Sequence record: OR670491
DNA: 64,000 nucleotides
Origin: Escherichia phage vB_EcoM_JNE01
Direction: 5' to 3' (one strand)
Position numbers and translations under genes: made by a program. This document shows positions 766 through 41,481 of this stretch, in pieces. Below the pieces are notes generated by a model, which saw only the letters and a program-made list of their open reading frames with translations, was not told the origin of the DNA and did not search any database. Numbering within the stretch: the first letter of the stretch is position 1; every line of letters begins with the position of its first letter.

Positions 766-1026
766 ATGAGCACATTGCTTGATTGGATTTCAATCCTTTA
801 TTATTCAATTTTAGTTTTATACAGTTTCACTATTCTACTTTCCGTTGGAATGTATAAAGAATTTCGTAATGGTTTTTTGAATGAAAAAACTAATAAGTTT
901 GCTTCTAAATTCGAAGCAGTACTTTATTATTGTTTAGCTTCTGGATACATTACCTGTTTAGTACTAATGGGTATTCTTATGTATTTTATGGGAACCATTT
1001 TACAAGTTCTTCCATCTCTAAGTTAA
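766..1026 (+). CDS. small hydrophobic membrane protein
   Basis: 86 aa ORF, strongly hydrophobic, followed by terminator hairpin. Confidence 0.35.
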   Translation: MSTLLDWISILYYSILVLYSFTILLSVGMYKEFRNGFLNEKTNKFASKFEAVLYYCLASGYITCLVLMGILMYFMGTILQVLPSLS

Positions 1027-1032
1027 GTGAAT

Positions 1033-1060
1033 AAAAAAGGGAGCATAAGCTCCCTTTTCT
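1033..1060. terminator. bidirectional intrinsic terminator between convergent genes
   Basis: A-tract, GGGAGC-ATAA-GCTCCC hairpin, T-tract; sits between + gene ending 1026 and - gene ending 1064. Confidence 0.6.
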
Positions 1061-1063
1061 AAT

Positions 1064-1972
1064 TTAAGCTGCACTTACAACATAAGTACATTCAGCAGTA
1101 TGTGAACCATCAACTGTAGTTACGATAACACTAGCATTACCTTCACCAACTAATGTCACTAAACCTGCATTTGATACAGTAAGAACTTCATCGTTAGTAC
1201 TTGACCATACAACATCTTTGTTAGCTGCATTTACTGGGAGTACAGTTGCAATTAGTGTTTCGGTTCCACCAATTGGGCCATTACTTGATGTTTTACTTAA
1301 AGTAACACCAGTAACTGGGGTATTGACAACATATGCACAAGATGCTACTTTAGAACCATCAACTGTTGTTGCGTTGACTGTTGCTGAACCGTTACCAACT
1401 AGAGTTACTAATCCAGAATTAGACACGGTGAGTACTGCGTCATTAGTACTTGACCATACAACTGATTTATTTGTTGCATTTTCAGGTAATACAGTTGCAA
1501 CTAGTGTTTCAGAACCACCAATCTGACCATTACTAGAATTTTTATTCAATGAAATACTTTCGACTGGAACAACAACTGCGACATACTTAGTCGCGTACTT
1601 ACCAGTTTGTACTTCATTGCCATTAGTAAGAATTACTTTATGGGTGAAAAATTTATATGCAAAACCGAGTGCTTCCATAGTTGTTGCATCATAAACTTTA
1701 ACAGCGAATTCATCACGACCAAGTGCACTTGCAATTTCTTGGGCAGTGGCTGATAAATCAAGTAGGTTACGATTTTTATCTCGACCAACCATTGATACTC
1801 TTTGATAAACAGTAGTTGAATCACTATCAACTAAGTCAAACATGCGAGTACTACACTCGTTGATAATGTATAGTTCTTTATCAATTTCTTGAGCACTGTG
1901 ATCAGTTGCTGCAAAAACACAGATACCACCAACGTTGAATGGCAATTCACCAAATTTAGCTATAGGCTTCAT
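1064..1972 (-). CDS. Ig-like (Big_2-type) repeat protein, possible virion decoration or adhesin
   Basis: 302 aa; two tandem ~80 aa repeats (SxNxxIGGxETLxATVLPxNAxNKxVVWSSTNDxVLTVSNxGLVTLVGxG...TTVDGS) typical of bacterial Ig-like domains; only minus-strand gene in window. Confidence 0.6.
   Translation of the reverse strand: MKPIAKFGELPFNVGGICVFAATDHSAQEIDKELYIINECSTRMFDLVDSDSTTVYQRVSMVGRDKNRNLLDLSATAQEIASALGRDEFAVKVYDATTMEALGFAYKFFTHKVILTNGNEVQTGKYATKYVAVVVPVESISLNKNSSNGQIGGSETLVATVLPENATNKSVVWSSTNDAVLTVSNSGLVTLVGNGSATVNATTVDGSKVASCAYVVNTPVTGVTLSKTSSNGPIGGTETLIATVLPVNAANKDVVWSSTNDEVLTVSNAGLVTLVGEGNASVIVTTVDGSHTAECTYVVSAA
1075..1564 (-). repeat. internal tandem duplication (~245 bp unit) encoding the two Ig-like domains
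   Basis: Repeat visible at protein and DNA level (e.g. acttgaccatacaac...agttgcaa(c/t)tagtgtttc...ccaccaat in both copies). Confidence 0.6.
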
Positions 1973-2917: not shown

Positions 2918-3670
2918 ATGTCTACACAATCCTTTTTAGAAAAAGCAGGGGAAAAACGTTTACTGATAATCAGCGGGGCTGGGTTATCGGTTGAAAGTGG
3001 GATGGAGCCATTTCGTTTTGATGATGGCTTATGGGATAACTTTCAAATCAATGACGTGTGTAATATTGCACGTCTTAGTTCCAAATATCATATAGTACAT
3101 GCATTCTATAATACTCTAAGAGTAAAATTAGGTTCGTGTGAACCAAATGCAATGCACTATTACATCAAATCATTAGAGGATCAGTACAAAGATAATTTCT
3201 TACACATGACCTCCAATATGGATGATTTGTACACTCGAATCGGTGGAACCGAGTTGAAGCTTCATGGTAATCTACGAGAAGTTATTAAAAACTACTCAAT
3301 CAATAGTGATGACTATGAAGTAATTGACTGTGGTTATGAACCGTTCATTCCAGAGACTGATGTGTTCTCTAAACCAAATGTTGTTATGATTGGTGAATAT
3401 CATCGTTATGTGGATGGGAACCGTCTTCCTATCTACGAAGAACGAAATGAAGTGTTGCGTAGTCTTACTGAAAATGATACAGTAATTGTTATTGGGAGCA
3501 GTGATACAGTACTGGTATGGTCCAGACTAGCTGGGGCGTTACCTTGTTATAGTGTTACTGTTAACGTCAGAAAGAATGACAATGACTTCCTATTCAATGA
3601 ACGTATCATTAAGCCAGCAACTAAAGCAATTCCAGTACTGGAGCCAATCATTAAGGAAAGAATGAAATGA
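2918..3670 (+). CDS. SIR2-family (sirtuin-like) NAD-dependent enzyme
   Basis: ISGAGLSVESG (GAGxSxxSG NAD-binding motif), TSNMDDL (TQNxD-like), HGNL (catalytic His); no four-Cys zinc module. Start refined to ATG 2918 (RBS gaaagg); ORF-track 2903 is a TTG. Confidence 0.7.
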   Translation: MSTQSFLEKAGEKRLLIISGAGLSVESGMEPFRFDDGLWDNFQINDVCNIARLSSKYHIVHAFYNTLRVKLGSCEPNAMHYYIKSLEDQYKDNFLHMTSNMDDLYTRIGGTELKLHGNLREVIKNYSINSDDYEVIDCGYEPFIPETDVFSKPNVVMIGEYHRYVDGNRLPIYEERNEVLRSLTENDTVIVIGSSDTVLVWSRLAGALPCYSVTVNVRKNDNDFLFNERIIKPATKAIPVLEPIIKERMK

Positions 3671-4224
3671 GTTTGAGAGAAGTACCACTCGGAGAATTTG
3701 GCAAACAAGCAAACTTTGTATTCTGTTACTTCTTTGCACGAAATTGTAATCCATATGAGAATTACGAGTTGAATGATATTCCAGTAGTTAATCTGGTACT
3801 CCTTCAACTCCGTTGGGATGGGTTGATGGGTGGATGTGGAGGAACAGTTGAAGATTCTGATACTTCACTTGAAGCTGCGTTGAAGCGTGAAATCCAAGAA
3901 GAAATGGATTATAATATTTCCATTGAACAGTTGAAACCTCTAAAGACGTTTGAATTGTTCCCTGGTGCTAACACTCATAGCTTCAGTTATGAAGTCACAT
4001 ATGATGAGTTGAAAGCGATTCGTGACGGGTACAGTACTGCTAAACATGCCAGTGCTGAAGTAGCGGGTGTAAATTTATGTCACATTTCTCGATATTCTAA
4101 GGGAAAAAATCGAGAAGCAGGATATAATAATCTCATGACACAAAACTTCATTGGAACAGCTAAGGAAGAATTGCAGTACTTAGTTGAAAATGAAAACTTA
4201 CTTATCAGTTACTTACAAGGGTAG
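3667..4224 (+). CDS. Nudix hydrolase
   Basis: Nudix-box-like GGCGGTVEDSDTSLEAALKREIQEEMD (Gx5Ex7REUxEExGU pattern); start overlaps SIR2 stop (ATGA), suggesting translational coupling. Confidence 0.6.
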   Translation: MSLREVPLGEFGKQANFVFCYFFARNCNPYENYELNDIPVVNLVLLQLRWDGLMGGCGGTVEDSDTSLEAALKREIQEEMDYNISIEQLKPLKTFELFPGANTHSFSYEVTYDELKAIRDGYSTAKHASAEVAGVNLCHISRYSKGKNREAGYNNLMTQNFIGTAKEELQYLVENENLLISYLQG

Positions 4225-4230
4225 AACAAA

Positions 4231-4551
4231 ATGTCATATGAAATGTTCCTCGATGATATTCGTAACCCAGGATACTATTATCCAGGTCGTTCGATGGTTG
4301 TATGTCGTGATTTTAAAAGTGCATGTAAACAAGTTGAAAAATTTGGTATTCCATCATTTATTTCATTCGATCACGATTTGGGCGACATGAATTATGATGA
4401 AAAAACTGGGTATTCCTTCGCTAAATGGATTATTGATTATATGTTTGAGCACGAAATCAAAACACCTTTTGCATTTCATGTTCACAGTAGTAATCCAGTT
4501 GGTAAAGTGAATATCGAACATTACCTTAACAATGCATTCGAAAATTTATGA
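4231..4551 (+). CDS. hypothetical protein (conserved-looking FDHDLG / HVHSSNPVG motifs)
   Basis: 106 aa ORF immediately downstream of SIR2-Nudix pair; family not recognised. Confidence 0.45.
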   Translation: MSYEMFLDDIRNPGYYYPGRSMVVCRDFKSACKQVEKFGIPSFISFDHDLGDMNYDEKTGYSFAKWIIDYMFEHEIKTPFAFHVHSSNPVGKVNIEHYLNNAFENL

Positions 4552-4838
4552 AACAGTTAATTATAAGTGCATTAATAACAATAGCGTTATGTACGGTGTG
4601 TATTCTAATTTTGAATTATATTGACCAAAATTCAAAACAGAATGAACACTTTCAGTCCGCTGTAGTAATTTCATTAGGTCAGTGCAGTAAAAGTGCATGT
4701 TCTTTCACTTACAAAACCGAAGATGGTTATGTAATGTCTGGACTGTCAGAAAAACCAGTATCGATTGGTCAGATTGTTTACCAAAAGTGCTGGGAAACTA
4801 AAGTGCGAGGTCATGCTTGTAGTGATTTCGTGCAATAA
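4548..4838 (+). CDS. membrane/secreted small protein
   Basis: N-terminal hydrophobic segment MKQLIISALITIALCTVCILIL; ATGA overlap with upstream gene. Confidence 0.4.
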   Translation: MKQLIISALITIALCTVCILILNYIDQNSKQNEHFQSAVVISLGQCSKSACSFTYKTEDGYVMSGLSEKPVSIGQIVYQKCWETKVRGHACSDFVQ

Positions 4839-4888
4839 GTAATCTACCAATCGAGTACAAGGATGTACTCATAACTCAAGGATGTTTT

Positions 4889-6328
4889 ATGAAAAAATAT
4901 ACAATTGACACAAACGTACTACTATCTGATCCAAATGCTACCATTGCTTTTGATGGAGCAGCTATCATTCTACCGTTCACAGTACTTGAAGAATTGGATT
5001 CAATCAAAAGTCGTAATGTGGATGTTTCCCGTGATGCTCGTGTTGCAATCCGTAATATTGAAGCAATCCTTTCTGATGCATCACATGAAGAAATTAGTAG
5101 TACTGGTGTTAATATTGCTGATGTTCATACTAATATGAGTCCTGAAAGCAAATTGTTTGTTATTACAAGCGAAGAAGCTGAAGCACTAATTCGCACTGCT
5201 GGTAACGAAGAGAAAGTTCAAACTCTTCTAAAAAGCACAGTACCAGATGATAAAATCATTTTAGTAGCATTAGCAACTGATTCAGTACTGGTTACCCGTG
5301 ATATCAATATGCGTATCAAGGCTCTAAGCTACGGGGTGGAAGTTCAAGATTACCGTCATGATATCGTGATTGGTGATAGTGATTTGATTCACATTGGTCA
5401 ACATCACCTTGACCTACATTTCTGGGATGTGTATAGTAATCTGACTGATGTATCTATTCAGTCTGAACAAGTTGGTCGTCGTTTGTACCACTACATTCCA
5501 AAAAGCTTGATTGAACATATCATGCCACAAAATATTTGCATCGGTGATTACCTATATGATAATGCTGATGTTCTATTTGTGTACGAAGGCCAATCTGCAA
5601 TTGAAGAAGATGATGGTACTTTAACACCAGAAGATATTCTTGTATTCCAAGATATTGGACAATCTGTTGCTCTACGTGCTAAAGTGTGGGATATTAAGGC
5701 TAAGAATATTCAACAAGCACTAGCAATCAACAGTATCCTAGATCCTGATGTTCATCTAACAGTACTGTTGGGTTCCGCAGGTACTGGTAAAACGCTAATT
5801 ACCATTGCGACTGCACTTGAATTGGTTCTTGAGAAGAAGAAATATGACCGTATTATGTTCTCAAAACCACAAGATTCACAATGGGCCGAAATCGGTTTCT
5901 TACCAGGCACTGAAATGGAAAAAATGCTACCACATTGTGGCCCTGCATTGGATGCTTTGGAATTCTTACATAAAGATGATGCATCACCACAAGGTAGTAT
6001 TGAGGAAATAATCAAGCGTAATGTTATTCAGTTCAAAGCATTGAACTTCATTCGCGGTCGTTCATTTACCAACACTATTCTGGTTGTGGATGAGTTTCAG
6101 AACATCACACCTGCTCAGGCTAAGACAATCCTTACCCGTGCTGGCATGAACTGCAAAGTGATTATTCTTGGGAACTTGGCACAGATTGATAGTAAATTCA
6201 TTAGCCCAGTTAACAGCGGCTTAACATATGTTGTTGAGAAATTTAAAAACTGGGATGGTTGTCGAGTAATCGAACTCGAAGGTGTTGTTCGTTCACCACT
6301 GGCAGAATTTGCTGAAGAAAATATGTAA
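4889..6328 (+). CDS. phoH: PhoH-like ATPase with N-terminal PIN domain
   Basis: Walker A LLGSAGTGKTLI, Walker B ILVVDEFQN; N-terminal PIN-like MKKYTIDTNVLL; 479 aa. Confidence 0.8.
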   Translation: MKKYTIDTNVLLSDPNATIAFDGAAIILPFTVLEELDSIKSRNVDVSRDARVAIRNIEAILSDASHEEISSTGVNIADVHTNMSPESKLFVITSEEAEALIRTAGNEEKVQTLLKSTVPDDKIILVALATDSVLVTRDINMRIKALSYGVEVQDYRHDIVIGDSDLIHIGQHHLDLHFWDVYSNLTDVSIQSEQVGRRLYHYIPKSLIEHIMPQNICIGDYLYDNADVLFVYEGQSAIEEDDGTLTPEDILVFQDIGQSVALRAKVWDIKAKNIQQALAINSILDPDVHLTVLLGSAGTGKTLITIATALELVLEKKKYDRIMFSKPQDSQWAEIGFLPGTEMEKMLPHCGPALDALEFLHKDDASPQGSIEEIIKRNVIQFKALNFIRGRSFTNTILVVDEFQNITPAQAKTILTRAGMNCKVIILGNLAQIDSKFISPVNSGLTYVVEKFKNWDGCRVIELEGVVRSPLAEFAEENM

Positions 6329-6337
6329 TAATACGTC

Positions 6338-6363
6338 GGAGTGCTTTTTATAGCACTCCTTCT
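6338..6363 (+). terminator. intrinsic terminator after phoH
   Basis: GGAGTGCT-TTTTAT-AGCACTCC hairpin followed by TTCT. Confidence 0.5.
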
Positions 6364-6374
6364 AAGGAATTATA

Positions 6375-7655
6375 GTGATAATAAAACATCTGTATTATAT
6401 TGACTCAAATTTCAGAAAATACGATAAAGTTTCAAAACTTAATCCAAAATACATTACAGATGTTATTTTCCAAGAAAAATACAACATAGATCGAAACAGT
6501 ACTGAAATACTACAGGATGATATATCATCATATACACCAAACGTAACGGGTTTTTATTATATAAAATACCCAACTGGTGTTAGAAAAGTTTATGCTTTAA
6601 AATGTAATGAGTGCTCTAAAAACTCAGTATTACATGGCGAAGGAATATATCTGGTTCACTTGTCACACATCAAAAACGGAATCATTTCGTGTGGGTGTGC
6701 AAAACGCACAAACTGGACACCATATCAATATTACATAAAAATGATATCAGAATGTAAAAATCGTAATTGCATTTTTTTAGGTTACGATAAAAAACACTTA
6801 CGTTTATATTGTCTCGAACATGGTTACTGGAATACCACATCCAAAGCACACTTCTTTAATGGGAAAGGATGTAGTAAATGTGGGGACACCAATTCAAGAG
6901 TGTTGAGAACAAAAGACAGTTATTTTCATATATCTAAATTTAAAATCTTAAATGCGTATAATTATCGACGTTCCGACAAGATTGATAGTAGTGGTCGCTT
7001 GCGTTATTGGGAATATATGTGTAAGAAATGTTCACATGATGAGTATGTTAGGCTCGGTTTGTGTAATGGGATTTTTACATCATTTAATAGTGATTTAGTA
7101 AAGGGTAAGAAATCATGTCGTTGTTCAAGTAACTATAGATGGACAGAAAAACAGCGTGAATATCAAATCACCAAACTCCTAAAATCCAATTTTCCTCACA
7201 TTAGCTTTAAAGGTTGGGTAAATAGTTATAAAAATATCCATAGTAAGGCGATTTTAAATTGTAATATTCATAATAATTATACGCAAAAAGTAAACTACAT
7301 ACTTAATAATAATTGTGGTTGTCCACAATGTGCTGGGATGACACAGACAGAATGTTATATAAATGTAATATATGATGTGTTTCCAATTGCTATAAAATAT
7401 GGAATTTCAACACATACAAAAAACCGCGTTTGTAGTCAAAATAATAAATCACCATTTGACGTTATTAATCATGGAATTTGGGATTTTGAAAATCCATATT
7501 TATGCAAAATGGCAGAAAATGAATGCAAGCGAACGGTAAGTCGTGTTCTATCAGAACGCGAGCTACCTGACGGATTTACTGAAACCGCTGAAGTGAAATA
7601 TATTGATGATATAATTAAAATATATGAAAGCTGGGGTGGTATCAAACGAAAATAG
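6375..7655 (+). CDS. Cys-rich repeat protein (zinc-ribbon-like repeats), possibly mobile-element derived
   Basis: 426 aa; at least four repeats of CxxC...HGxW...CxxC; markedly AT-richer codon usage than neighbours; GTG start with RBS aagga. Confidence 0.45.
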   Translation: MIIKHLYYIDSNFRKYDKVSKLNPKYITDVIFQEKYNIDRNSTEILQDDISSYTPNVTGFYYIKYPTGVRKVYALKCNECSKNSVLHGEGIYLVHLSHIKNGIISCGCAKRTNWTPYQYYIKMISECKNRNCIFLGYDKKHLRLYCLEHGYWNTTSKAHFFNGKGCSKCGDTNSRVLRTKDSYFHISKFKILNAYNYRRSDKIDSSGRLRYWEYMCKKCSHDEYVRLGLCNGIFTSFNSDLVKGKKSCRCSSNYRWTEKQREYQITKLLKSNFPHISFKGWVNSYKNIHSKAILNCNIHNNYTQKVNYILNNNCGCPQCAGMTQTECYINVIYDVFPIAIKYGISTHTKNRVCSQNNKSPFDVINHGIWDFENPYLCKMAENECKRTVSRVLSERELPDGFTETAEVKYIDDIIKIYESWGGIKRK

Positions 7656-7726
7656 TAGTTTTTTGTAGACAAAACGAAAAATAGTGATATAATAATGTTA
7701 TTAACAACAAAGAAGGAGAATCAATC

Positions 7727-7924
7727 ATGGCTAAACAACCTAAGAAAAAAGAACCTGAAGTTAAAGTTAAGAAAGTTAAAGTTATTCAATCTAAAGAACA
7801 ACGTAATTACGAACTACGTAAAGCAGAAACCCTATCAGGTCTTCAAGCTCTACGTAAACAAGGTGTTCTAACTCGTGCTCAATACCGTGAGATAGTAGCA
7901 CAAAAAGGTTATTGGTCCATTTGA
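7727..7924 (+). CDS. small basic protein
   Basis: 65 aa, lysine-rich N-terminus, RBS aaggag 7 nt upstream. Confidence 0.45.
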   Translation: MAKQPKKKEPEVKVKKVKVIQSKEQRNYELRKAETLSGLQALRKQGVLTRAQYREIVAQKGYWSI

Positions 7925-8020
7925 AGCAATAAACTGGAGTTCTTCATAAATACTTTCATAAGAATAATAATACTTTTTATGAAAATTAAAAAGAACTCCA
8001 TGTGTTATTTCAGTTTTTCA

Positions 8021-8047
8021 TCCCTGTCTTTTGGCAGGGATTTTTTC
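8021..8047 (+). terminator. intrinsic terminator
   Basis: TCCCTG-loop-CAGGGA followed by TTTTTT. Confidence 0.6.
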
Positions 8048-8065
8048 TATCCATAGGAAAGTGAG

Positions 8066-8800
8066 ATGAGCATAACTGATATATCCAATAAAGTTATTAA
8101 TGAATTGGTACAGAGAGGTTTTGCATCACCTATGATATATGGTTCGTGGTGCTACTATGAAAAGTACAAATTCGATGACAAGTATCCTAATGACATTGAT
8201 GTGATTAACATAGTACATGAAGAGTCGGAGGAAGGTGAATTTACTTTGGAGTTGAATTGTATTGACATTCCAGTTAATGTCGAATGCATGACTCTTCAGC
8301 ATTTTAGACAAGATTACAAGACTCCACAAATTAAGTACTTGGGTATAGGTCTTGCAGGTTCCAACAATTCATCAATCAATCACATCTTTTTATATCTAGG
8401 TGCAGTTCACAGTTACTATGCTGAACTTCCCAAAAATGTTGTTCGAACTATGTGCAGTTCATCATCGTCTAAGGCATTTAACAAAGGTGTTAAGAAACTG
8501 ACACTTGACGATGACTACGATAAAGATTTGGGTCTAAAAAACATCTGGCATAGCATTCATTTCATTTCTATAGTAGATTCATATTACAAGTCCTACGATG
8601 ATAGTCTTAATGTTGCAGAATATGCGTTGTATACTGAATATAACATGTTGCGTTGTATCCCGATGCGTGATATGATATATAAAATTTACGAGGAAACTGA
8701 AGGTTCTCTTCAGGATAAGGCTCAAGCAGTCATAGACTATGCAAAGCCTTTACGTAACAAATTAATGACAGAATTTCGTGCCTTATACCCAAAGGAGTGA
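8066..8800 (+). CDS. hypothetical protein (possible minimal nucleotidyltransferase fold)
   Basis: 244 aa; N-terminal YGSW...DIDVI loosely fits GS...DxD of Pol-beta-type NTases; RBS ggaaag. Confidence 0.45.
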   Translation: MSITDISNKVINELVQRGFASPMIYGSWCYYEKYKFDDKYPNDIDVINIVHEESEEGEFTLELNCIDIPVNVECMTLQHFRQDYKTPQIKYLGIGLAGSNNSSINHIFLYLGAVHSYYAELPKNVVRTMCSSSSSKAFNKGVKKLTLDDDYDKDLGLKNIWHSIHFISIVDSYYKSYDDSLNVAEYALYTEYNMLRCIPMRDMIYKIYEETEGSLQDKAQAVIDYAKPLRNKLMTEFRALYPKE

Positions 8801-8867
8801 TATAATGAAAAAACATACAGGAAAACAGCCGTTCCATTAGGTTAATTTAACTTAAAGGAGACTATAT

Positions 8868-9392
8868 ATGTTTTTTGAACAATCTTTTATTCTGTACTAC
8901 GATTCTGGTAAAGTTGAATACACTGATAACCTTTTTGAAGTTATCAACCGAATGGGTGGAGTTGATAGTTTTCATGCTGCAATGAAATTCAATCTAGGTG
9001 AATTCAACAAACGTAACGGTAAACTGTATAATATCAGTACTGGATTTTTCTTGTGCAATGCTAAAGGCTTGATGATTTCCCCTGATCTGTTATACGATGA
9101 GTATCAGATTGCATGGGATGAATTTTGGAAGAATAAGCGTAAAGCTATTGATGACAAATTCAAACACAACAGGTCTTGGCGTTTTAAACACAGTCAAGTT
9201 CGTTACAAACACCCACATACTCAACAAGAACGTCGCATGGCATGTGCAGTTCAAAAAGATGAGGGTGAACCTAGTATTCGTGGTAAACGCAAAATGCGTT
9301 CTATCCCTTCTTTATGGGATGATAAAAAGACAAGACACAGTACTGGATGGAAAACTAGTACTAAGCGTAAACATCAATACAAAGGGAGCTAA
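8868..9392 (+). CDS. hypothetical protein with basic C-terminal tail
   Basis: 174 aa, RBS aaggag; C-terminus rich in K/R/H. Confidence 0.45.
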   Translation: MFFEQSFILYYDSGKVEYTDNLFEVINRMGGVDSFHAAMKFNLGEFNKRNGKLYNISTGFFLCNAKGLMISPDLLYDEYQIAWDEFWKNKRKAIDDKFKHNRSWRFKHSQVRYKHPHTQQERRMACAVQKDEGEPSIRGKRKMRSIPSLWDDKKTRHSTGWKTSTKRKHQYKGS

Positions 9393-9420
9393 TGCTCCCT
9401 ATTTTTATGGATACAATAAA

Positions 9421-9759
9421 ATGAATACCAATGACCGACACACAATTATAGTAGAACTAGGCTACATTGAAATTGAAAATTGTAGTATTGATAAAATGAT
9501 TGAAGTACTACAAAAGTATCGTTCGGAATATGACGGATACATGTCACTCGTCCCTGAAGGTGGGTATAGTGGTTTTGACGGTTATAAAATCCTTTTATCA
9601 CGAGATGAAACTGATGAAGAAATTATTGCTCGTCATGCAGCAGAAAAGAAACGTAAAGAGGATGCTGAACGTACTGAAATGAATCGTTTAATGCAAAAGA
9701 AATCATTGAATGCTTCTCAAAAAGAAACTCTTATTAAATATATCCAGGAATATATGTAA
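9421..9759 (+). CDS. hypothetical protein
   Basis: Coding-looking C-terminal part of ORF-track 9097..9759; N-terminal extension overlaps previous gene and looks non-coding, so start placed at ATG 9421 (uncertain). Confidence 0.4.
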   Translation: MNTNDRHTIIVELGYIEIENCSIDKMIEVLQKYRSEYDGYMSLVPEGGYSGFDGYKILLSRDETDEEIIARHAAEKKRKEDAERTEMNRLMQKKSLNASQKETLIKYIQEYM

Positions 9760-10415
9760 TGAAAAATATCACACAAGAGAAGATCCTGTACCTCGCAAAA
9801 TATAATGGTGGTTTTAATATCCAAAGCTGTGAGTACACTGGAAATATGGCTAAAATACTTGACTCTCTATTAAGTCTAGGATTGATTCGTTGGGATACTA
9901 ATGAACTTTGGTATGAATATGCTGGACAGCAATGGGAAAGTGATTATGACCATGCAATCCATTCATATACCATTACTAAAGCAGGTGAAGTTCGTTTAGC
10001 CATTATGCGTTGTGCCTATACCTATAAAAACTTCAAAGGTGAAGAGAAACATATCCGACGTAATCAAGAACTCATTCATCTCATGGGTGAAGCTGGTATC
10101 AAGATGGATGTTTTGTTGAATGAACCACGTTGGGTTAACAATCTCACCAAAGCAGAGTCGAAAGCACTACGATACATTACAGAACAAGAAGTTCAACCTT
10201 CTAAACCGGAAAAAGTACTACAAGGTGATGGTGAGTTAAGTCTTCAAAATGTGTTCGAAAGTACCAGTACTGAAAGTATTTCTGATATATCAGTCCAGAT
10301 GGCAATCAAAGCTATGGAGCTTTTTAAGACCCAATACGAAGGTACAAGTGCAGATGAAGTAGAACGTGAGTTCATTACTCGTGTACAAATTGCGTTACAT
10401 AAAAATAAAAAGTAG
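9759..10415 (+). CDS. hypothetical protein
   Basis: 218 aa ORF with ATG overlapping upstream stop. Confidence 0.5.
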   Translation: MKNITQEKILYLAKYNGGFNIQSCEYTGNMAKILDSLLSLGLIRWDTNELWYEYAGQQWESDYDHAIHSYTITKAGEVRLAIMRCAYTYKNFKGEEKHIRRNQELIHLMGEAGIKMDVLLNEPRWVNNLTKAESKALRYITEQEVQPSKPEKVLQGDGELSLQNVFESTSTESISDISVQMAIKAMELFKTQYEGTSADEVEREFITRVQIALHKNKK

Positions 10416-10421
10416 GTTCAT

Positions 10422-10601
10422 ATGAAAATTTTACTTGTACTAATAGCCGTAGTTATGGTATTATCTTGTTCAGTTAGTAATGGTAAGTACATTTACATGT
10501 CTGCGTTCGAGGAAGCACCGACAAACTGTGTACAAACTCATTCAGGTCTTATGCTAGTTAATGGCAGACCTTCAATTGAATACTTATGTATAGGTGATTA
10601 A
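10422..10601 (+). CDS. small putative lipoprotein
   Basis: 59 aa ORF not in track: MKILLVLIAVVMVLSCSVSN has signal peptide plus lipobox-like LSC. Confidence 0.35.
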   Translation: MKILLVLIAVVMVLSCSVSNGKYIYMSAFEEAPTNCVQTHSGLMLVNGRPSIEYLCIGD

Positions 10602-10604
10602 ATT

Positions 10605-10835
10605 ATGAAATTATTGTGTATTGCTATTGTTTCTTCTATTGTATTTCTAAGTGGGTGTGCACCTAAAGTTAATGAGATGGATGCTGAACTCATCCGTCTT
10701 GGATTGACTAAACTCAATCACGATGGTACACTGTATGCATGTCATGAAATGCGTCACGGTCAAGATCTGAACTTAATGTGCAGAAAGATTGTGAATCGTA
10801 AACGTATTAATACAATCCCAAGGGATGTACAATGA
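10605..10835 (+). CDS. small putative lipoprotein
   Basis: MKLLCIAIVSSIVFLSGC, signal peptide with lipobox LSGC. Confidence 0.5.
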   Translation: MKLLCIAIVSSIVFLSGCAPKVNEMDAELIRLGLTKLNHDGTLYACHEMRHGQDLNLMCRKIVNRKRINTIPRDVQ

Positions 10836-11053
10836 AAGCAAAAGAATTAGCAGAATTACTGTTACAACATCCTGACGCAGAAGTTATTGTTTGTGATGAA
10901 GAAATGTTTTTAGTTAATGCGTCTAAAGTAACGGTTTATGAAAAAGATGAGATGATAAAAGAAGGTGATGGTAGTACCAAATCGGAAGACCTTACTTCTC
11001 TTGGAATCTACGATTATCCAATTTGTAATACACAAGTTATTTTTATTTCATGA
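10832..11053 (+). CDS. hypothetical protein (N-terminus paralogous to 34374 gene)
   Basis: MKAKELAELLLQHPDAEV versus MKAKDLAALLMQNPEMEV at 34374. Confidence 0.45.
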   Translation: MKAKELAELLLQHPDAEVIVCDEEMFLVNASKVTVYEKDEMIKEGDGSTKSEDLTSLGIYDYPICNTQVIFIS

Positions 11054-11060
11054 GGAAACT

Positions 11061-11420
11061 ATGAGTGATTATGTTGGATTCCTATACCGCTTTGGTGTTG
11101 CACAAGAAAAACACATCATCCGTATGCCAGCATATGGTGAGAAAGGATGGTATAAGAGTATTATCAGTGTAGGTGCATTTCGTGACCGTGAAGCAGTATA
11201 CTTCCTTAAGAGTCTCAGTGATGAACCTATTCGCTTCTCACTTCAGCGTTTATCAGAATGGGAGGAAAGTAATAAAATCACAGCAGAATCAATGCAAGCC
11301 GTATGTGGTATTCAAAATTATGTCCATCCATATGACAATCTTCCTTGTACTGTGCATAATTCAGTGTTTGACTTTTATGCAGCAGTAGGGTATGATTATA
11401 AAAAGAAACGTTACATTTGA
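11061..11420 (+). CDS. hypothetical protein
   Basis: Start refined to ATG 11061 with RBS gagga; ORF-track 10965 start overlaps previous gene. Confidence 0.5.
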   Translation: MSDYVGFLYRFGVAQEKHIIRMPAYGEKGWYKSIISVGAFRDREAVYFLKSLSDEPIRFSLQRLSEWEESNKITAESMQAVCGIQNYVHPYDNLPCTVHNSVFDFYAAVGYDYKKKRYI

Positions 11421-11439
11421 ATTTCAATGGGGATTTAAA

Positions 11440-12057
11440 ATGACAGCAGCCGACAAGTACTGGTGGATTTACAACCACGCCTCATTCGTCAACAAAGATT
11501 TAGTATATCCAAAGATTGAGATTGAACCACATAACGTATGCCCTGATACCAATCGCATTGAAGACCATGAATATCTAAATACAAAGGTTCAGTACTGGGT
11601 AGAGTTGATGACCCCTGAATTCGATGAAGATTCACAAAACTGGATTCTTTCACACGATTATCAGTTAGATTGTGGTGGTGATACCTTTGAAGAAGCAATT
11701 GATGCAGTGTACAATAAGGTTTTGGAACGTTACGGTACATACAAACAAGAAGATGCAGATGCGTTATTTGATTCATTGTTTAAAAAATCATCACAACCAA
11801 ATCCAGCATACCAGCAATTTAGCAATCCACATGAACGATTATACAGTGCTACGTTTCTGTTGTTGAATTACGATGACAAGTTCTCGCTGATTGATAGCAT
11901 AGATACTCGTAAAAATACAATAAAGTCCTTGCAGAAGTACATTGCTTCTTGTACAATAGAGCAATCAGAGAAAGCAAAGATTGCATTAGAAGATGAAGAA
12001 TGTTTGCTTTGGTTGCAAGAACTATCACTTAAAACAGGCGTGGATTTATTACTATGA
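11440..12057 (+). CDS. hypothetical protein
   Basis: Start refined to ATG 11440 (RBS gggga); 206 aa. Confidence 0.5.
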   Translation: MTAADKYWWIYNHASFVNKDLVYPKIEIEPHNVCPDTNRIEDHEYLNTKVQYWVELMTPEFDEDSQNWILSHDYQLDCGGDTFEEAIDAVYNKVLERYGTYKQEDADALFDSLFKKSSQPNPAYQQFSNPHERLYSATFLLLNYDDKFSLIDSIDTRKNTIKSLQKYIASCTIEQSEKAKIALEDEECLLWLQELSLKTGVDLLL

Positions 12058-12422
12058 ACAGTAAACTGGAAAAACTAATTGAAGAACTTCGACGGATGCC
12101 GCCAATTGAGCAAGTTGGCAATTACAAGCGTTATCGCGTTATAGCACGAGCACTGGATAAGAAAGGTCGAGTACTGGCAACTCGTACCAACTCTTATACA
12201 CAAACTCATCCTAAACAGAAAGGGTTTGCGATTCGTGCTGGACGTCCACAAGGTGAGTTTCTTCATGCTGAAATTTCATGTTTACTGGCTGCACGGGCTG
12301 AAGTTCATACTCTGTTGATTGCACGAGTCAGTAAAGATGGCATTCCAGTTCCAGCTAAACCATGCGAGATTTGCACTTTAGCTATCCAAGAATATGGAGT
12401 AAAAGAAATTATTCACACATGA
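12054..12422 (+). CDS. cytidine/deoxycytidylate deaminase family zinc-binding protein
   Basis: HAE (HAEISCL) and PCxxC (PCEIC) zinc-binding motifs of the CDA fold; 122 aa. Confidence 0.6.
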   Translation: MNSKLEKLIEELRRMPPIEQVGNYKRYRVIARALDKKGRVLATRTNSYTQTHPKQKGFAIRAGRPQGEFLHAEISCLLAARAEVHTLLIARVSKDGIPVPAKPCEICTLAIQEYGVKEIIHT

Positions 12423-12643
12423 AAACTGAATACTACGATAAACATACTGTATTCTATACTAAATCCACTATACTGTATTATTACATATTTGAACCTAATT
12501 ACTGTTTACAGATAACAACCTACGCAAATGGTAGATTTAAAGATGTAAACTTCCCATTAACCGATTTAGCAAAACATATCAGTACTGAACATTTCATTAA
12601 TTTAGTACAAGTATATTGTAAACCAAACCCTAACAACACTTAA
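12419..12643 (+). CDS. hypothetical small protein (uncertain)
   Basis: ATG overlaps deaminase stop (ATGA) but region is AT-rich and repeat-containing; may be non-coding. Confidence 0.25.
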   Translation: MKTEYYDKHTVFYTKSTILYYYIFEPNYCLQITTYANGRFKDVNFPLTDLAKHISTEHFINLVQVYCKPNPNNT

Positions 12644-12658
12644 ACTAAGGAGTCAATA

Positions 12659-13021
12659 ATGGCTAAAACAATTTCAATGAAAGACGATACCGTTGGTATT
12701 CGCAAAGATGGTTTCTATGGTTTCTCATGGACTACCCTATTCTTCGGTCCAATCCCTGCACTATTCCGTGGTGATTTCCTAACATTCCTTGGTGTAGTAG
12801 CTGTGTACGTAGTTCTTAACGTATTCACTATGGGTATTCTCGGAACCCTAGCTATGGTAGTATGGGCGTTCATGTACAACAAATATTACACCCAAAGCCT
12901 ACTCAAGAAAGGTTTTAAATTCAATGGCAGTGATGAAGACAACAAAGAAGCAGCAATGTATTTGCATGTGGAATTGAACTCTCATAACACGGTTGATAAA
13001 AACAAAGGTCCAGAGGTCTAA
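12659..13021 (+). CDS. membrane protein
   Basis: 120 aa with two hydrophobic segments; RBS aaggag. Confidence 0.5.
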   Translation: MAKTISMKDDTVGIRKDGFYGFSWTTLFFGPIPALFRGDFLTFLGVVAVYVVLNVFTMGILGTLAMVVWAFMYNKYYTQSLLKKGFKFNGSDEDNKEAAMYLHVELNSHNTVDKNKGPEV

Positions 13022-13200
13022 TGGAAATCTTTAAAAAAGATTATGATGGGGAAAGTCTTTATGATATGCAGCGTGACGTACACGAAGCGTTTGATTCAAG
13101 ATTTAACCCATTAGCCGACCAGATTCCACAAGATGAATTTGGTTTTCAAGAAGGTACATTCACAGTAACTATTACCTGGACACCGGATGAGAATAATTAA
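13021..13200 (+). CDS. hypothetical small acidic protein
   Basis: 59 aa ORF, ATG overlapping upstream stop (TAATG). Confidence 0.35.
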   Translation: MEIFKKDYDGESLYDMQRDVHEAFDSRFNPLADQIPQDEFGFQEGTFTVTITWTPDENN

Positions 13201-13303
13201 ACTTTTGATTGGCTTATTAGCAATGATATTGTTTTTTATATGTTCCGCTCCAATTAATACTATGGTGTTGATTTGGGCAGTTGTAATTTTAGCAGTACTT
13301 TAA
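13187..13303 (+). CDS. small hydrophobic peptide (uncertain)
   Basis: 38 aa, single predicted TM helix, followed directly by terminator. Confidence 0.25.
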   Translation: MRIIKLLIGLLAMILFFICSAPINTMVLIWAVVILAVL

Positions 13304-13327
13304 AAGCACCCTAGTGGTGCTTTTTTC
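13304..13327 (+). terminator. intrinsic terminator
   Basis: GCACC-CTAGT-GGTGC then TTTTTT. Confidence 0.6.
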
Positions 13328-13464
13328 ATTTGTACAAATAAAAACCTATCTACCCTTTCATTGATTCAGGTCAAAAGAAACATAGCGTTCTGGAGCTATA
13401 ATGTTGTCTTGTGGAGTTAAATAACTTCACCCCAGATGAATTATAGAATACAAGGAAGAATTAA

Positions 13465-15267: not shown

Positions 15268-15274
15268 GGTACAT

Positions 15275-15604
15275 ATGTGCGATTTAAAACCAATAGTTGT
15301 TAACAAATACAAAGAACAGTATGATGTGTACATTGGTCGTGGGTCGAAATGGGGAAATCCATTCACCCACATTAAAGACAAGGAAACTAAAGCAGAATTC
15401 ATTGTTGCGACCCGCGAAGAGTCAATTGAGAAGTTCAGAGACTATATTCTGGAACGTATCGAAAAGGGTGAAGTTCAAATTGATGAACTCCTTGAACTCG
15501 CTGGGAAACGTCTTGGTTGCTTTTGTAAGCCCAAATCATGTCATGGTGATGTTCTTGTGGAAATAGTGAGTGCTATACTAGATGAACTATCAGACGATAA
15601 TTAA
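15275..15604 (+). CDS. DUF4326-like protein
   Basis: VYIGRGSKWGNPF motif; start refined to ATG 15275. Confidence 0.45.
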   Translation: MCDLKPIVVNKYKEQYDVYIGRGSKWGNPFTHIKDKETKAEFIVATREESIEKFRDYILERIEKGEVQIDELLELAGKRLGCFCKPKSCHGDVLVEIVSAILDELSDDN

Positions 15605-16052: not shown

Positions 16053-16057
16053 AATGT

Positions 16058-16082: not shown

Positions 16083-16156
16083 CGTTCAAAGGAACTGTAG
16101 GTACGCGAATATGTGCATAAATACATGAACAAATATCTATAATAAAAGGGATATAT

Positions 16157-39677: not shown

Positions 39678-40310
39678 ATGATATATAATGTTGGTATAAA
39701 TGATGTACCAGGTGATTCTAAATCGGATAGTGATGGTTATTATATATATGTGAAATGGAAAAGTATGATTAAACGATGCTACTCAGTTGAATATCAAAAA
39801 ATACACCATTCATATATTGGAACAACTGTATGTAATGAATGGCTTACATATTCAAATTTTAAAGATTGGTATCTAAATAATTACATAGACGGGTATGTTT
39901 TAGATAAAGACTTGATATCGGGTGATTTACAAGTATACTCACCAGTGACATGTTCATTTGTACCACAAGAATTAAATTGTTCTATTCTTGAAAGTAATAG
40001 TGCTAAAACAAAACTACCATTGGGTGTGTCATATCAACAGAAAACTAAAAATATGATAAATGAACGTTCGAAACCATATGATTCATATATAAAAATGTAT
40101 GGTAAGTTGTATCGTCTTGGTAGTTATGAATGTCCTGAACTTGCACATAAAGAATGGCAAATCGCCAAGAAAAAATATCTCGAAGAACTCATTGACAGAT
40201 ATAAAAATTCTGTTAAAATGGAAGTCATAGAAGGTATTCAGAAACGAATTGATATATTACATAATGATATAGTCAATGACGGTGTTACAATAACAATCAA
40301 TAAGATATAA
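39678..40310 (+). CDS. AP2-domain protein, homing-endonuclease-like (possible mobile ORF)
   Basis: WKSMIKRCY...YIGTTVCNEW motif plus AP2-like LGVSYQQKTKN...YGKLYRLGSYECPELAHKEW; AT-rich relative to neighbours. Confidence 0.45.
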   Translation: MIYNVGINDVPGDSKSDSDGYYIYVKWKSMIKRCYSVEYQKIHHSYIGTTVCNEWLTYSNFKDWYLNNYIDGYVLDKDLISGDLQVYSPVTCSFVPQELNCSILESNSAKTKLPLGVSYQQKTKNMINERSKPYDSYIKMYGKLYRLGSYECPELAHKEWQIAKKKYLEELIDRYKNSVKMEVIEGIQKRIDILHNDIVNDGVTITINKI

Positions 40311-40660: not shown

Positions 40661-40690
40661 GGGACAGTATATTTCTGTCCCTTTTCTTTT
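40661..40690 (+). terminator. intrinsic terminator
   Basis: GGGACAG-loop-CTGTCCC then TTTTCTTTT. Confidence 0.65.
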
Positions 40691-40704
40691 TGGAGTTTTT
40701 TAAT

Positions 40705-41097
40705 ATGCATAGTGTATGGCTGGAAATAATCAAAACTCTTATATCAGTACATGACAAGGACTTACCTGATAATCTAGTCATTAACCGATGGTACTATCCA
40801 GACACATTTGACAGAAAGGTTGGATGCATCTTTTATCACGACGATTACGGTAAATTTTGTGGATTAATTGAAGATATCAAATCCAATGTATCTTTCTCTA
40901 TAGAAATGAACGTAGATCACATAAAATACTACAACAGTAAAATGGATGAAGAACATGATGATGTTATAATCCCTATGGATATTGACGAAGCTGAGTTTTT
41001 TCAGTTATCAACAATTTATAATTTATCTGACATTACTTATGATAATGTTAAAGACATTATTAAATTGTACGATAAAATGTATAATTACTTTTTGTGA
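40705..41097 (+). CDS. hypothetical protein
   Basis: Start refined to ATG 40705 after terminator. Confidence 0.45.
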   Translation: MHSVWLEIIKTLISVHDKDLPDNLVINRWYYPDTFDRKVGCIFYHDDYGKFCGLIEDIKSNVSFSIEMNVDHIKYYNSKMDEEHDDVIIPMDIDEAEFFQLSTIYNLSDITYDNVKDIIKLYDKMYNYFL

Positions 41098-41481
41098 TTG
41101 AGGTATAAGTTGAGAAATACATTAATTAAAGTTAATTTATCACATTTCGATCCATACCAGAAATATGAAGAAAGTAAAAGGTATAATATTAATGATGATT
41201 TCACAATATATTTCAATAGAACATACAGCACAATCATCATCACTATTTGTGATCATATAAAAATTTGTATAACAAAAGATATAATAACTTTGTACATTCA
41301 AAACAAAGAAACTGATATACCAACAGATTTGGATGAAGATGCATATGCTCAAGACGAATTCGTGAGAGATCACTTGTTGATTGAGTACGATACTTATTCA
41401 TTGATTAATTTCTACAAAGTAAATTACATTAAGTGGTTGTCTGGTGAAAGTGATGATGGTATAATAGAGTGGAGCATTTAA
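41098..41481 (+). CDS. hypothetical protein (non-ATG start)
   Basis: ORF begins at TTG 41098 with no internal ATG; AT-rich; uncertain. Confidence 0.3.
   Translation: MRYKLRNTLIKVNLSHFDPYQKYEESKRYNINDDFTIYFNRTYSTIIITICDHIKICITKDIITLYIQNKETDIPTDLDEDAYAQDEFVRDHLLIEYDTYSLINFYKVNYIKWLSGESDDGIIEWSI

What the first reader, a model, noticed from the sequence alone, without database searches (positions are those of the whole stretch)
6329..7726. AT-rich island encoding a 426 aa Cys-rich repeat protein
Between phoH and the next small gene lies a compositionally distinct, very AT-rich gene. Its product has at least four repeats of a CxxC...HGxW...CxxC module (putative zinc ribbons). Composition and position resemble free-standing homing-endonuclease or other selfish insertions common in T4-like genomes, but no HNH or GIY-YIG motif is evident. 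Possibly a novel zinc-ribbon DNA-binding or nuclease family.
Basis: partly seen in the sequence, partly recalled or inferred. Interest (0 to 1): 0.5.

Follow-up and report, generated by a model that had tools for sequence, protein, structure and literature searches.

The report
Homing endonuclease gene inserted after phoH
This is a selfish "homing endonuclease" gene of an already described phage family (repeated CapR-type zinc fingers plus a divergent GIY-YIG/T5orf172 nuclease domain), sitting in a giant E. coli phage inside a stretch that also carries a foreign version of the neighbouring phoH gene. It is a clean but ordinary example of how such genes reshuffle phage genomes.

Summary

The host is an Asteriusvirus-type jumbo coliphage, not a T4-like phage. 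The gene is absent from this intergenic site in all 35 relatives in the phage collection. Against its nearest relative, Turkey5, the window is about 100% identical up to about 4860 and 98.8% identical from 7700. Between those points lie a TH47/WPEC3-like phoH and the inserted gene, which looks like a co-conversion tract.

Orthologues with 57-59% and 40% identity sit at the same place after phoH in other jumbo phages, again as presence/absence polymorphisms.

Verdict: a free-standing CapR/T5orf172-type homing endonuclease gene, and a new member of a known kind. Cleavage activity and the target site are inferred, not shown.

The parts
4860..7699 (+). Imported tract relative to the Turkey5-like backbone: TH47/WPEC3-like phoH plus the endonuclease gene cassette.
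   Evidence: Window 2933-4832 is 99-100% identical to Turkey5 per 100 bp, and 7700-17000 is 98.8% identical. Within 4933-6332, identity to Turkey5 is 61-92% while identity to TH47 is 92-100%. Window 6332-7699 has no counterpart in Turkey5.
4889..6328 (+). PIN-PhoH gene, the conserved neighbour and likely target-side flank. It is itself mosaic: 4933-5732 is about 100% WPEC3-like and 5833-6232 is 99-100% TH47-like.
   Evidence: PIN_4 and PhoH Pfam domains are recorded on the orthologues in L004 and L005.
6338..6359 (+). 8-bp-stem hairpin (GGAGTGCT-TTTTAT-AGCACTCC) between the phoH stop and the endonuclease gene's ribosome-binding site. It resembles the hairpins at the same place in L004 and L005 and differs from that of HEG-less TH47 and PBECO4.
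   Evidence: Fold of 6326-6400: -18.4 kcal/mol, z = -3.86, 0 of 200 shuffles as good. Junction sequences.
6364..6377 (+). Shine-Dalgarno AAGGA (6364-6368) and GTG start codon (6375-6377).
   Evidence: Sequence. Orthologues start with ATG at the homologous codon.
6375..7655 (+). Endonuclease ORF of 426 aa, including the stop codon.
   Evidence: Pfam CapR 3.5e-24. PHROG 681 endonuclease 9.9e-62. AF2 model with mean pLDDT 88.
6375..6542 (+). N-terminal helical region (residues 1-56), found only in the closest relatives. Its function is unknown.
   Evidence: Helices at 2-8, 11-20 and 24-36 in the model. Alignment. No Pfam hit.
6543..6704 (+). Zinc module A (residues 57-110): C77xxC80, 25 residues, C106xC108. 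CapR type.
   Evidence: (these Cys are at least 90% conserved).
6765..6884 (+). Zinc module B (residues 131-170): C145xxH148...C166xxC169. Zinc-ribbon type, and degenerate in some relatives.
6954..7127 (+). Zinc module C (residues 194-251): C216xxC219...C248xC250. This is the best CapR match and all four Cys are invariant.
   Evidence: Best Pfam CapR stretch is 204-251. Invariant Cys.
7197..7334 (+). Zinc module D (residues 275-320): C296xH298...C314xC316xxC319. Gives a weak DUF723 match.
   Evidence: DUF723 at 268-320, E=0.015. C296, C316 and C319 are at least 90% conserved.
7338..7652 (+). C-terminal divergent GIY-YIG/T5orf172-like nuclease domain (residues 322-426). Key residues are Y328 (YIN), K341-Y-G343 (KYG), R351, E381 and E403.
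7666..7693 (+). Strong sigma-70-like promoter (TAGACA, 16 nt, TG-TATAAT; 11 of 12) for the downstream 65-aa gene, left intact just 3' of the insertion.
   Evidence: The homologous TGATATAAT element is present in HEG-less relatives.
7727..7924 (+). Downstream 65-aa gene (PHROG 24119), 100% identical in protein to Turkey5's. It marks the return to the backbone.

Best explanation
The ORF is a free-standing homing endonuclease gene (HEG) of the CapR-zinc-finger/T5orf172 class.

**Proposed mechanism (inferred).**
- The four tandem zinc modules act as a "beads on a string" array that reads a long DNA site.
- The C-terminal GIY-YIG-superfamily domain cuts nearby. Its likely key residues are Y328, K341, R351 and E381.
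- The target is the HEG-less allele of the phoH / 65-aa-gene interval, most likely at or to the left of the insertion point, in the phoH 3' region or its terminator hairpin.
- During mixed infection the break is repaired from the HEG-carrying genome. This copies the 1.3-kb cassette and a variable length of donor phoH sequence into the recipient.

**Shown here.**
- The domain identities.
- Intergenic placement that leaves the phoH stop and the next gene's promoter intact.
- Absence from every close relative.
- A foreign phoH tract contiguous with the gene.
- Orthologues at the same site in other jumbo phages.

**Inferred only.** Present-day cleavage activity, the exact target site and the direction of transfer.
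For: **Domains.**
1. CapR homology domain scores 85 bits against a cutoff of 24, with several stretches. PHROG 681 endonuclease gives 1e-61.
2. In the literature, the CapR Cys4 motif is needed for DNA binding (EMSA, PMC8096241).
3. T5orf172 HEGs commonly carry repeated CapR/DUF723 fingers and sit at boundaries of genetic exchange (PMC10448857).
4. A T5orf172 nuclease (Odn) cleaves DNA in vitro and its activity depends on the conserved Glu (PMC8263062).

**C-terminal domain is GIY-YIG-like.**
2. BFVD neighbours are named GIY-YIG, T5 Orf172 or homing endonuclease.
3. 40 of 100 proteins sharing the domain at E<=1e-30 hit T5orf172, and 27 hit MUG113.
4. K341, G343, R351, E381 and E403 are invariant in 101 sequences.

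**Presence/absence.** All 35 relatives have phoH followed directly by the small gene.

**Co-conversion-like tract.** Flanks are about 100% and 98.8% identical to Turkey5, but phoH is 80.6% identical to Turkey5 against 96.6% to TH47.

**Repeats of the pattern at the same site.**
1. Contig L004 against phage EJP2: flanks are 99.85% and 100% identical, and a 1335-bp cassette replaces 7 bp.
2. RCIP0023 against RaK2: the phoH 3' half plus the HEG have no nucleotide similarity, while flanks are 92-97% identical.
3. In the window and in RCIP0023 the divergent tract extends leftward into phoH. In L004 the only flank differences (3 mismatches in 1953 bp) lie on the phoH side.

**Family spread.** Family members occupy many other loci: a paralogue lies next to ligase in KP13-7, and only 2 of 61 IMG/VR loci are near a PhoH-like ORF. 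This fits a diversifying HEG family in which one sub-lineage is tied to phoH.
Against: - No cleavage, target site or homing event was observed.
- The protein itself does not reach the Pfam T5orf172 or GIY-YIG models even at E<=1.
- A shallow profile-profile comparison with T5orf172-positive relatives was weak (P=0.008).
- No donor genome carrying this HEG next to a TH47-like phoH was found. The nearest HEG proteins are 59% identical or less, apart from a 99% copy on contigs of at most 1.4 kb.
- Other small divergent patches against Turkey5 lie away from any nuclease gene (971-1265 and 9441-9700). Mosaicism therefore does not always need a HEG.
- No HEG-plus-specific substitutions could be identified in the phoH 3' end.
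Confidence: 0.75

Rival explanations
1. A co-opted, non-homing protein built from HEG parts. It could be a sequence-specific DNA-binding regulator like the satellite repressor CapR. It could also be a nuclease used against competitors or satellites, like ICP1 Odn, giving exclusion of co-infecting phages without copying itself.
For: - CapR is a domesticated relative that acts only as a repressor (PMC8096241).
- Odn is a T5orf172 nuclease used for defence rather than homing (PMC8263062).
- The gene lies directly between a terminator hairpin and a strong promoter. Binding there could affect transcription of neighbouring genes.
Against: - Unlike CapR, it keeps a full nuclease domain with all family-invariant residues.
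- Its sporadic distribution at one site, with divergent flanking tracts in three separate phage lineages, is what homing predicts.
- Marker exclusion and homing are not mutually exclusive.
Confidence: 0.13
2. A decaying or immobile HEG: a relic of an old invasion that is now only carried along. The phoH mosaic would then come from ordinary homologous recombination unrelated to the gene.
For: - HEGs typically degenerate after fixation.
- The start codon is GTG and no strong promoter of its own was found.
- phoH is mosaic even among HEG-less phages: WPEC3-like and TH47-like segments lie within one gene.
Against: - The ORF is full length relative to orthologues, with no frameshifts.
- All conserved Cys ligands and the R351, E381 and E403 positions are intact.
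- The gene is rare in its clade (0 of 35), not fixed.
- The largest divergent tract against Turkey5 abuts the gene exactly. A second nuclease-like insertion in the window shows the same arrangement.
Confidence: 0.08
3. An ordinary, vertically inherited accessory or repair gene, for example a Holliday-junction-resolvase-like role as proposed for T5orf172/Uri proteins of jumbo phages, that has been deleted in the relatives.
For: - PMC7824862 suggests recombination or HJR-like roles for conserved T5orf172 proteins in this jumbo-phage group.
- HEG divergence tracks phoH divergence across lineages: 59% against 73%, 57% against 68%, and 40% against 50%.
Against: - It would need independent precise deletions in 35 of 35 Asteriusvirus genomes plus EJP2 and RaK2. 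Each deletion would have to leave an intact hairpin and promoter.
- It does not explain the switch of phoH allele exactly at the gene's border.
- The gene is not conserved, so it cannot be a core function.
Confidence: 0.04

Closest known systems
T5orf172-family homing endonuclease genes with CapR/DUF723 zinc-finger arrays (Vibrio phage ICP1 gp165, gp174, gp121, gp53, gp130 and relatives; PMC8096241, PMC10448857)
   Same: - N-terminal repeated CxxC...CxC zinc fingers (Pfam CapR) followed by a C-terminal GIY-YIG-superfamily domain.
- Free-standing, intergenic and sporadically distributed.
- Located at a boundary of genetic exchange next to a conserved gene.
- An ICP1 protein is a direct sequence hit (P0017, 8.5e-34).
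   Different: - The C-terminal domain belongs to a divergent branch with the motifs YIN...KYG...R...AExECK...DGxTET. This protein does not reach the Pfam T5orf172 model.
- CapR-type and CxxH...CxxC ribbon modules alternate.
- There is an extra N-terminal helical segment.
- The host is an Asteriusvirus jumbo coliphage and the locus is phoH.
CapR, the capsid-operon repressor of the Vibrio cholerae satellite PLE (PMC8096241)
   Same: It has the same zinc-finger DNA-binding domain (PF21817). The Cys4 motif was shown to be required for DNA binding.
   Different: CapR has no nuclease domain and acts as a transcriptional repressor. The protein here keeps a complete nuclease-like domain.
Odn (ICP1 gp88), a T5orf172 origin-directed nuclease (PMC8263062)
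   Same: It has a C-terminal T5orf172/GIY-YIG-type domain with catalytic Arg and Glu. It cleaves DNA in vitro in a sequence-directed way, and E180A abolishes the activity.
   Different: Odn uses a RepA_N DNA-binding domain and serves anti-satellite defence. Here the binding part is a zinc-finger array and the genomic pattern points to homing.
T4 free-standing GIY-YIG endonucleases (SegA-G, e.g. [quoted passage not shown] Recalled from established literature and cited within PMC10448857.
   Same: - Free-standing intergenic HEGs in large lytic phages.
- A GIY-YIG catalytic fold joined to a modular DNA-binding part.
- Co-conversion of flanking markers.
- Cleavage in or near a neighbouring conserved gene.
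   Different: - Domain order is reversed: in Seg and I-TevI the nuclease is N-terminal, here it is C-terminal.
- The binding modules differ: NUMOD/HTH against CapR zinc fingers.
- There is no detectable sequence similarity to the canonical GIY-YIG Pfam models.
Slx1 / At-HIGLE GIY-YIG nuclease domains (PDB 6seh, 7cq2, 7wme)
   Different: Sequence identity is only 8-13%. They are eukaryotic structure-specific nucleases with different partners. The match is resemblance of fold only.

Membership tests
CapR homology domain proteins (Pfam PF21817) | Match to the Pfam model above its gathering score. | tested here: met
   85.2 bits against a cutoff of 24.2, E=3.5e-24, with several stretches. All 26 aligned homologues also match.
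CapR homology domain proteins (Pfam PF21817) | CxxC, 24-26 residues, CxC cysteine pattern (PMC8096241). | tested here: met
   Module A is C77xxC80, 25 residues, C106xC108. Module C is C216xxC219, 28 residues, C248xC250, so slightly longer. The Cys of module C are invariant and those of module A at least 90% conserved.
CapR homology domain proteins (Pfam PF21817) | Zinc-dependent sequence-specific DNA binding. | not testable with these tools
   Shown for PLE CapR by EMSA and Cys-to-Ser mutants (PMC8096241). Only inferred here.
T5orf172 / GIY-YIG nuclease superfamily | Match of this protein to Pfam T5orf172 (PF10544), MUG113 (PF13455) or GIY-YIG models. | tested here: not met
   No such hit even at E<=1, and none in NCBIfam. 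Indirect link: 40 of 100 proteins sharing this C-terminal domain at E<=1e-30 hit T5orf172, and 27 hit MUG113.
T5orf172 / GIY-YIG nuclease superfamily | GIY-YIG fold: a three-stranded sheet with flanking helices (beta-beta-alpha-beta-alpha). | tested here: met
T5orf172 / GIY-YIG nuclease superfamily | Conserved catalytic Arg after strand 2 and Glu in the following helix, plus Tyr/Lys in strands 1 and 2. | tested here: met
   R351, E381, K341 and G343 are invariant, and Y328 is at least 90% conserved in 101 sequences. They align with the KxG, R and E of T5orf172-positive relatives. Equivalence to I-TevI R27 and E75 is inferred from position in the fold, not from a residue-level superposition.
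T5orf172 / GIY-YIG nuclease superfamily | Metal-dependent DNA cleavage. | not testable with these tools
   Needs a nuclease assay with an E381A control.
Free-standing homing endonuclease genes | Sporadic presence/absence at one fixed site among otherwise collinear close relatives, without disrupting host genes. | tested here: met
   It is absent in 35 of 35 related phages. The insertion lies between the phoH stop and the promoter of the next gene. A second polymorphism is seen between L004 and EJP2, with flanks 99.85% and 100% identical.
Free-standing homing endonuclease genes | Co-conversion of flanking sequence with the gene. | tested here: met
   The phoH allele switches from Turkey5-like to TH47/WPEC3-like exactly over 4860-6331, contiguous with the gene. 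There is an analogous tract in RCIP0023 against RaK2. The pattern is consistent with co-conversion, but no such event was observed directly.
Free-standing homing endonuclease genes | Site-specific cleavage of the HEG-less allele and super-Mendelian inheritance. | not testable with these tools
   Requires biochemistry and phage crosses.
HNH homing endonucleases | HNH / beta-beta-alpha-metal motif or a Pfam HNH match. | tested here: not met
   There is no HNH family among the Pfam or PHROG hits of this protein.

The most novel reading that the evidence does not exclude
The C-terminal domain may define a large branch of the GIY-YIG superfamily that current models do not capture well.
- The branch has 1277 cluster representatives at E<=1e-3, and the domain is C-terminal in all 150 best matches listed.
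- It has its own invariant set: K341, G343, R351, C377, E381, D399-G400 and E403-T404.
- In this reading it is coupled to alternating CapR and CxxH zinc modules that form a modular, possibly re-programmable DNA-reading array.

In this sub-lineage it would specifically target the PIN-PhoH gene of Rak2/121Q-type jumbo phages and drive exchange of phoH alleles. That would make phoH a previously unrecognised recombination hot spot maintained by a selfish nuclease.
Probability: 0.2. Interest if true: 0.5.

Novelty: new member of a known kind. Interest (0 to 1): 0.27.

Why it matters
This finding explains an apparent orphan gene and corrects the view that no nuclease motif is present.

It also gives a well-resolved natural example of a homing endonuclease gene sitting at the border of an imported tract in a 350-kb jumbo coliphage. 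The backbone is nearly identical on both sides and the adjacent phoH allele is replaced. The same gene lineage occupies the same site in three diverged phage groups.

This extends to Asteriusvirus and Alcyoneusvirus jumbo phages the pattern described for ICP1-like and other phages, that nuclease genes occupy boundaries of genetic exchange. It nominates the phoH 3' region as the target.

Practically, the protein is a candidate long-site, modular zinc-finger nuclease. The C-terminal domain alignment could seed a better profile for a domain that Pfam currently misses in many members.

Tried and rejected
- **PDB sequence search.** Only chance-level hits with E>0.6.
- **NCBIfam.** Nothing for the whole protein or the C-terminal part.
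- **Foldseek of the full-length model against PDB.** Uninformative, because this is a multi-domain model with pTM 0.45. The only hint was At-HIGLE at rank 28. Modelling the C-terminal domain alone solved this.
- **Shallow hhalign.** Our C-terminal subfamily against the T5orf172-positive relatives gave a consistent alignment but weak statistics (P=0.008, probability 4.8%). It was replaced by the transitive Pfam test.
- **afdb50 fold library.** Not available.
- **IMG/VR scans.** The scan with the single protein found no close relative. The 26-sequence alignment was too diverse to seed a scan. A 10-sequence alignment then worked.
- **HEG-plus-specific substitutions in the last 200 bp of phoH.** I looked for candidate immunity or target-site changes and found no consistent pattern.
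- **Target-site duplication.**
  - A 9-bp direct repeat, ATAGTGATA, occurs at 6372-6380 and 7681-7689, the only two copies in the window.
  - I did not adopt it as a duplication. The right copy is the extended -10 element that HEG-less relatives also have, the left copy overlaps the start codon, and 31 of 100 shuffles give at least two copies of a 9-mer like this somewhere in the window.
- **HNH identity.** Rejected.
- **T4-like context.** Rejected.
Full report
**1. Observation.**

- The region 6329-7726 is the interval between the stop codon of a PhoH gene (4889-6328) and a 65-aa gene (7727-7924).
- It holds one long ORF, 6375..7655 on the + strand, of 426 aa.
- The ORF starts with GTG six nt after an AAGGA Shine-Dalgarno. 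Its two closest full-length orthologues start with ATG at the homologous codon.
- It has 22 cysteines (5.2%), the highest fraction among 74 ORFs of at least 100 aa in the window (mean 1.6%, sd 1.2%).
- Its GC content is 31.3% against 36.5% for the window. That is the lowest 2.2% of equal-length sliding windows and 5th lowest of 74 ORFs. GC3 is within one sd of the mean. The "AT-rich island" is therefore real but moderate.

The protein has four zinc-type modules of two alternating kinds:

| Module | Cys/His pattern |
|---|---|
| A | C77xxC80...C106xC108 |
| B | C145xxH148...C166xxC169 |
| C | C216xxC219...C248xC250 |
| D | C296xH298...C314xC316xxC319 |

Module A aligns with module C (E=0.002).

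**2. What the protein is.**

*Family hits.*
- Pfam finds the CapR homology domain (PF21817; 85 bits against a cutoff of 24; several stretches) and a weak DUF723 match.
- PHROGs gives family 681, "endonuclease", at 1e-61 over residues 64-424.
- The CapR domain was defined from the repressor CapR of the Vibrio cholerae satellite PLE. Its CxxC...CxC cysteines are required for DNA binding, and it is related to the DNA-binding parts of putative T5orf172 homing endonucleases of phage ICP1 (PMC8096241).
- A later survey showed that T5orf172 HEGs commonly carry repeated CapR/DUF723/DUF4397 zinc fingers and lie at boundaries of genetic exchange (PMC10448857).
- An ICP1 protein is among the direct hits of our protein (P0017).

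*C-terminal domain.* The C-terminal 105 residues give no Pfam or NCBIfam hit on their own. Four lines of evidence place them in the GIY-YIG/T5orf172 superfamily.

1. In the family alignment they align with the T5orf172 domains of relatives that do hit PF10544. G343, R351, E381 and E403 are invariant across both types.
3. In BFVD its neighbours are CapR-domain proteins of RaK2, K64-1 and GAP32-type jumbo phages. They also include proteins named "GIY-YIG domain-containing" (2e-7), "Homing endonuclease" and "T5 Orf172".
4. A profile of the domain finds 1277 cluster representatives, with the domain C-terminal in all 150 best matches listed. Of 100 of the best (E<=1e-30), 40 hit T5orf172 and 27 hit MUG113.

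Across 101 sequences K341, G343, R351, C377, E381, D399, G400, E403 and T404 are invariant. The "GIY...YIG" is therefore present in the T5orf172-like form Y-I-N...K-Y-G, followed by the Arg and Glu.

A T5orf172 nuclease, Odn, has been shown to cleave DNA in a manner dependent on the equivalent Glu (PMC8263062). The full-length model is confident (pLDDT 88) but has flexible domain packing (pTM 0.45).

**3. Genomic context.**

*Host and insertion.*
- The window is not T4-like. It matches Asteriusvirus-type jumbo coliphages of about 350 kb (Turkey5, TH47, PBECO4, 121Q).
- In all 35 matching genomes phoH is followed within about 70-80 bp by the small gene. The ORF is absent.
- Relative to Turkey5, window 6332-7699 has no counterpart and replaces 48 bp. 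Relative to TH47, 6341-7684 replaces 15 bp.
- The cassette starts right after the phoH stop with a stable hairpin (6338-6359; z = -3.9). It ends just before a strong promoter (TAGACA, 16 nt, TG-TATAAT, 7666-7693) that serves the 65-aa gene and is conserved in HEG-less relatives.

*Recombination signature against Turkey5.*

| Window segment | Identity to Turkey5 | Identity to TH47 |
|---|---|---|
| 2933-4832 | 99-100% per 100 bp | 50-89% per 100 bp |
| 4933-6332 (phoH) | 80.6% | 96.6% |
| 7700-17000 | 98.8% | not computed |
| 16259-37923 | 97.4% | not computed |
| 40309-64000 | 99.1% | not computed |

- Part of phoH (4933-5732) is 100% WPEC3-like.
- The phage therefore has a Turkey5-like backbone in which about 2.8 kb (about 4860-7699) has been imported. 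This tract consists of a foreign phoH allele plus the endonuclease gene.
- That is the footprint expected of homing with co-conversion.

**4. The same gene lineage at the same site elsewhere.**

- The nearest proteins (P0002 at 59% and P0003 at 57%) are encoded directly after PIN-PhoH on two metagenomic contigs.
- One contig, L004, matches phage EJP2 at 99.85% and 100% in the flanks. It carries a 1335-bp cassette where EJP2 has 7 bp. From inspection of the junction sequences, three substitutions lie in the hairpin loop and just 3' of its stem.
- In Klebsiella phages RCIP0023 and OU509535 a 40%-identical homologue lies 74 bp after PhoH.
- Against RaK2, the 3' half of RCIP0023's phoH, the HEG and a small ORF have no nucleotide similarity, while the flanks are 92-97% identical.
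- In the window and in RCIP0023 the divergent tract runs leftward into phoH and ends close to the 3' end of the HEG. In L004 the few flank differences are on the phoH side. I take this as a hint that the break is made at or left of the insertion point.
- Other family members lie at unrelated loci. A paralogue sits next to DNA ligase in KP13-7. Only 2 of 61 IMG/VR loci have a PhoH-like ORF nearby. This fits a diversifying HEG family in which one sub-lineage is tied to phoH.

**5. Mechanism.**

Best explanation (confidence 0.75): a free-standing CapR/T5orf172-type homing endonuclease gene.
- The zinc-finger array reads a long site in the phoH / orf65 interval of HEG-less phages.
- The GIY-YIG-like domain cuts.
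- Recombinational repair from the HEG-plus genome copies the gene and adjacent phoH sequence.

Shown: domain identities, placement, absence in relatives, the contiguous foreign tract and recurrence at the same site. Inferred: activity, target and direction.

Rivals:
- A co-opted regulator or exclusion nuclease, as CapR and Odn are (0.13).
- A decaying, immobile relic (0.08).
- A vertically inherited accessory or HJR-like gene lost in relatives (0.04; compare PMC7824862).

**6. Comparison, novelty and score.**

- The gene is a member of the CapR-domain family by Pfam's own threshold.
- It belongs to the GIY-YIG/T5orf172 superfamily by fold, conserved residues and transitive profile evidence, although it fails the Pfam T5orf172 model itself.
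- It meets the genomic criteria of a free-standing HEG. The biochemical criteria cannot be tested here.
- It is a new member of a known kind.
- Interest is modest at 0.27. The case is a tidy natural example and points to phoH as a homing target in jumbo phages, but the class and the phenomenon are already described.

Noticed in passing
window 38111-40310: There is a second nuclease-like insertion. ORF 39678..40310 (+; 210 aa; GC 28.9%) matches PHROG 953 'HNH endonuclease' at 8e-68, but only over profile positions 198-398 of 420, and has no Pfam hit. Window 39592-40308 has no counterpart in Turkey5. The endolysin region just to its left (38111-39591) is only 78.5% identical to Turkey5, in a backbone that is 97-99% identical. 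This is the same arrangement as at the phoH locus.
   Followed up: partly
window 6372-6380 and 7681-7689: The 9-mer ATAGTGATA occurs only twice in the 64-kb window, once over the start codon of the endonuclease ORF and once in the extended -10 of the promoter just after it. In L004 and L005 the ORF start (ATGATATTC) likewise resembles the downstream TGATATAAT element. This could be microhomology from the original insertion event, or chance.
   Followed up: partly
window 4889-6328: phoH is itself a mosaic. 4933-5732 is about 100% identical to WPEC3. 5833-6232 is 99-100% identical to TH47 but 75-84% to WPEC3. The last 100 bp differ somewhat from all three relatives compared. This suggests repeated exchange within the gene.
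   Followed up: partly
window 8066-8800: The 244-aa ORF after the small gene is shared only with Turkey5 among the phages found. The other relatives' nucleotide matches stop at about window 8051, and PBECO4 and WPEC3 have a 185-aa gene at that position. This is another variable slot close to the insertion.
   Followed up: no
window 971-1265 and 9441-9700: There are small clusters of mismatches to Turkey5 in otherwise about 100% identical sequence: about 30 mismatches in 971-1265 and about 37 in 9441-9840. No obvious nuclease gene lies next to either.
   Followed up: no
L077 13549-14004 (Klebsiella phage RCIP0023): The RCIP0023 cassette after phoH carries, besides the endonuclease homologue, an extra 151-aa ORF. 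This ORF lies in the stretch with no nucleotide similarity to RaK2. Its function is unknown.
   Followed up: no
window 40690-41481: Two further low-GC ORFs, 40690..41097 (GC 29.4%; PHROG 36582, unknown function) and 41098..41481 (GC 27.6%; no hit), lie just after the HNH-like insertion. They are within the part that is 99% identical to Turkey5.
   Followed up: no
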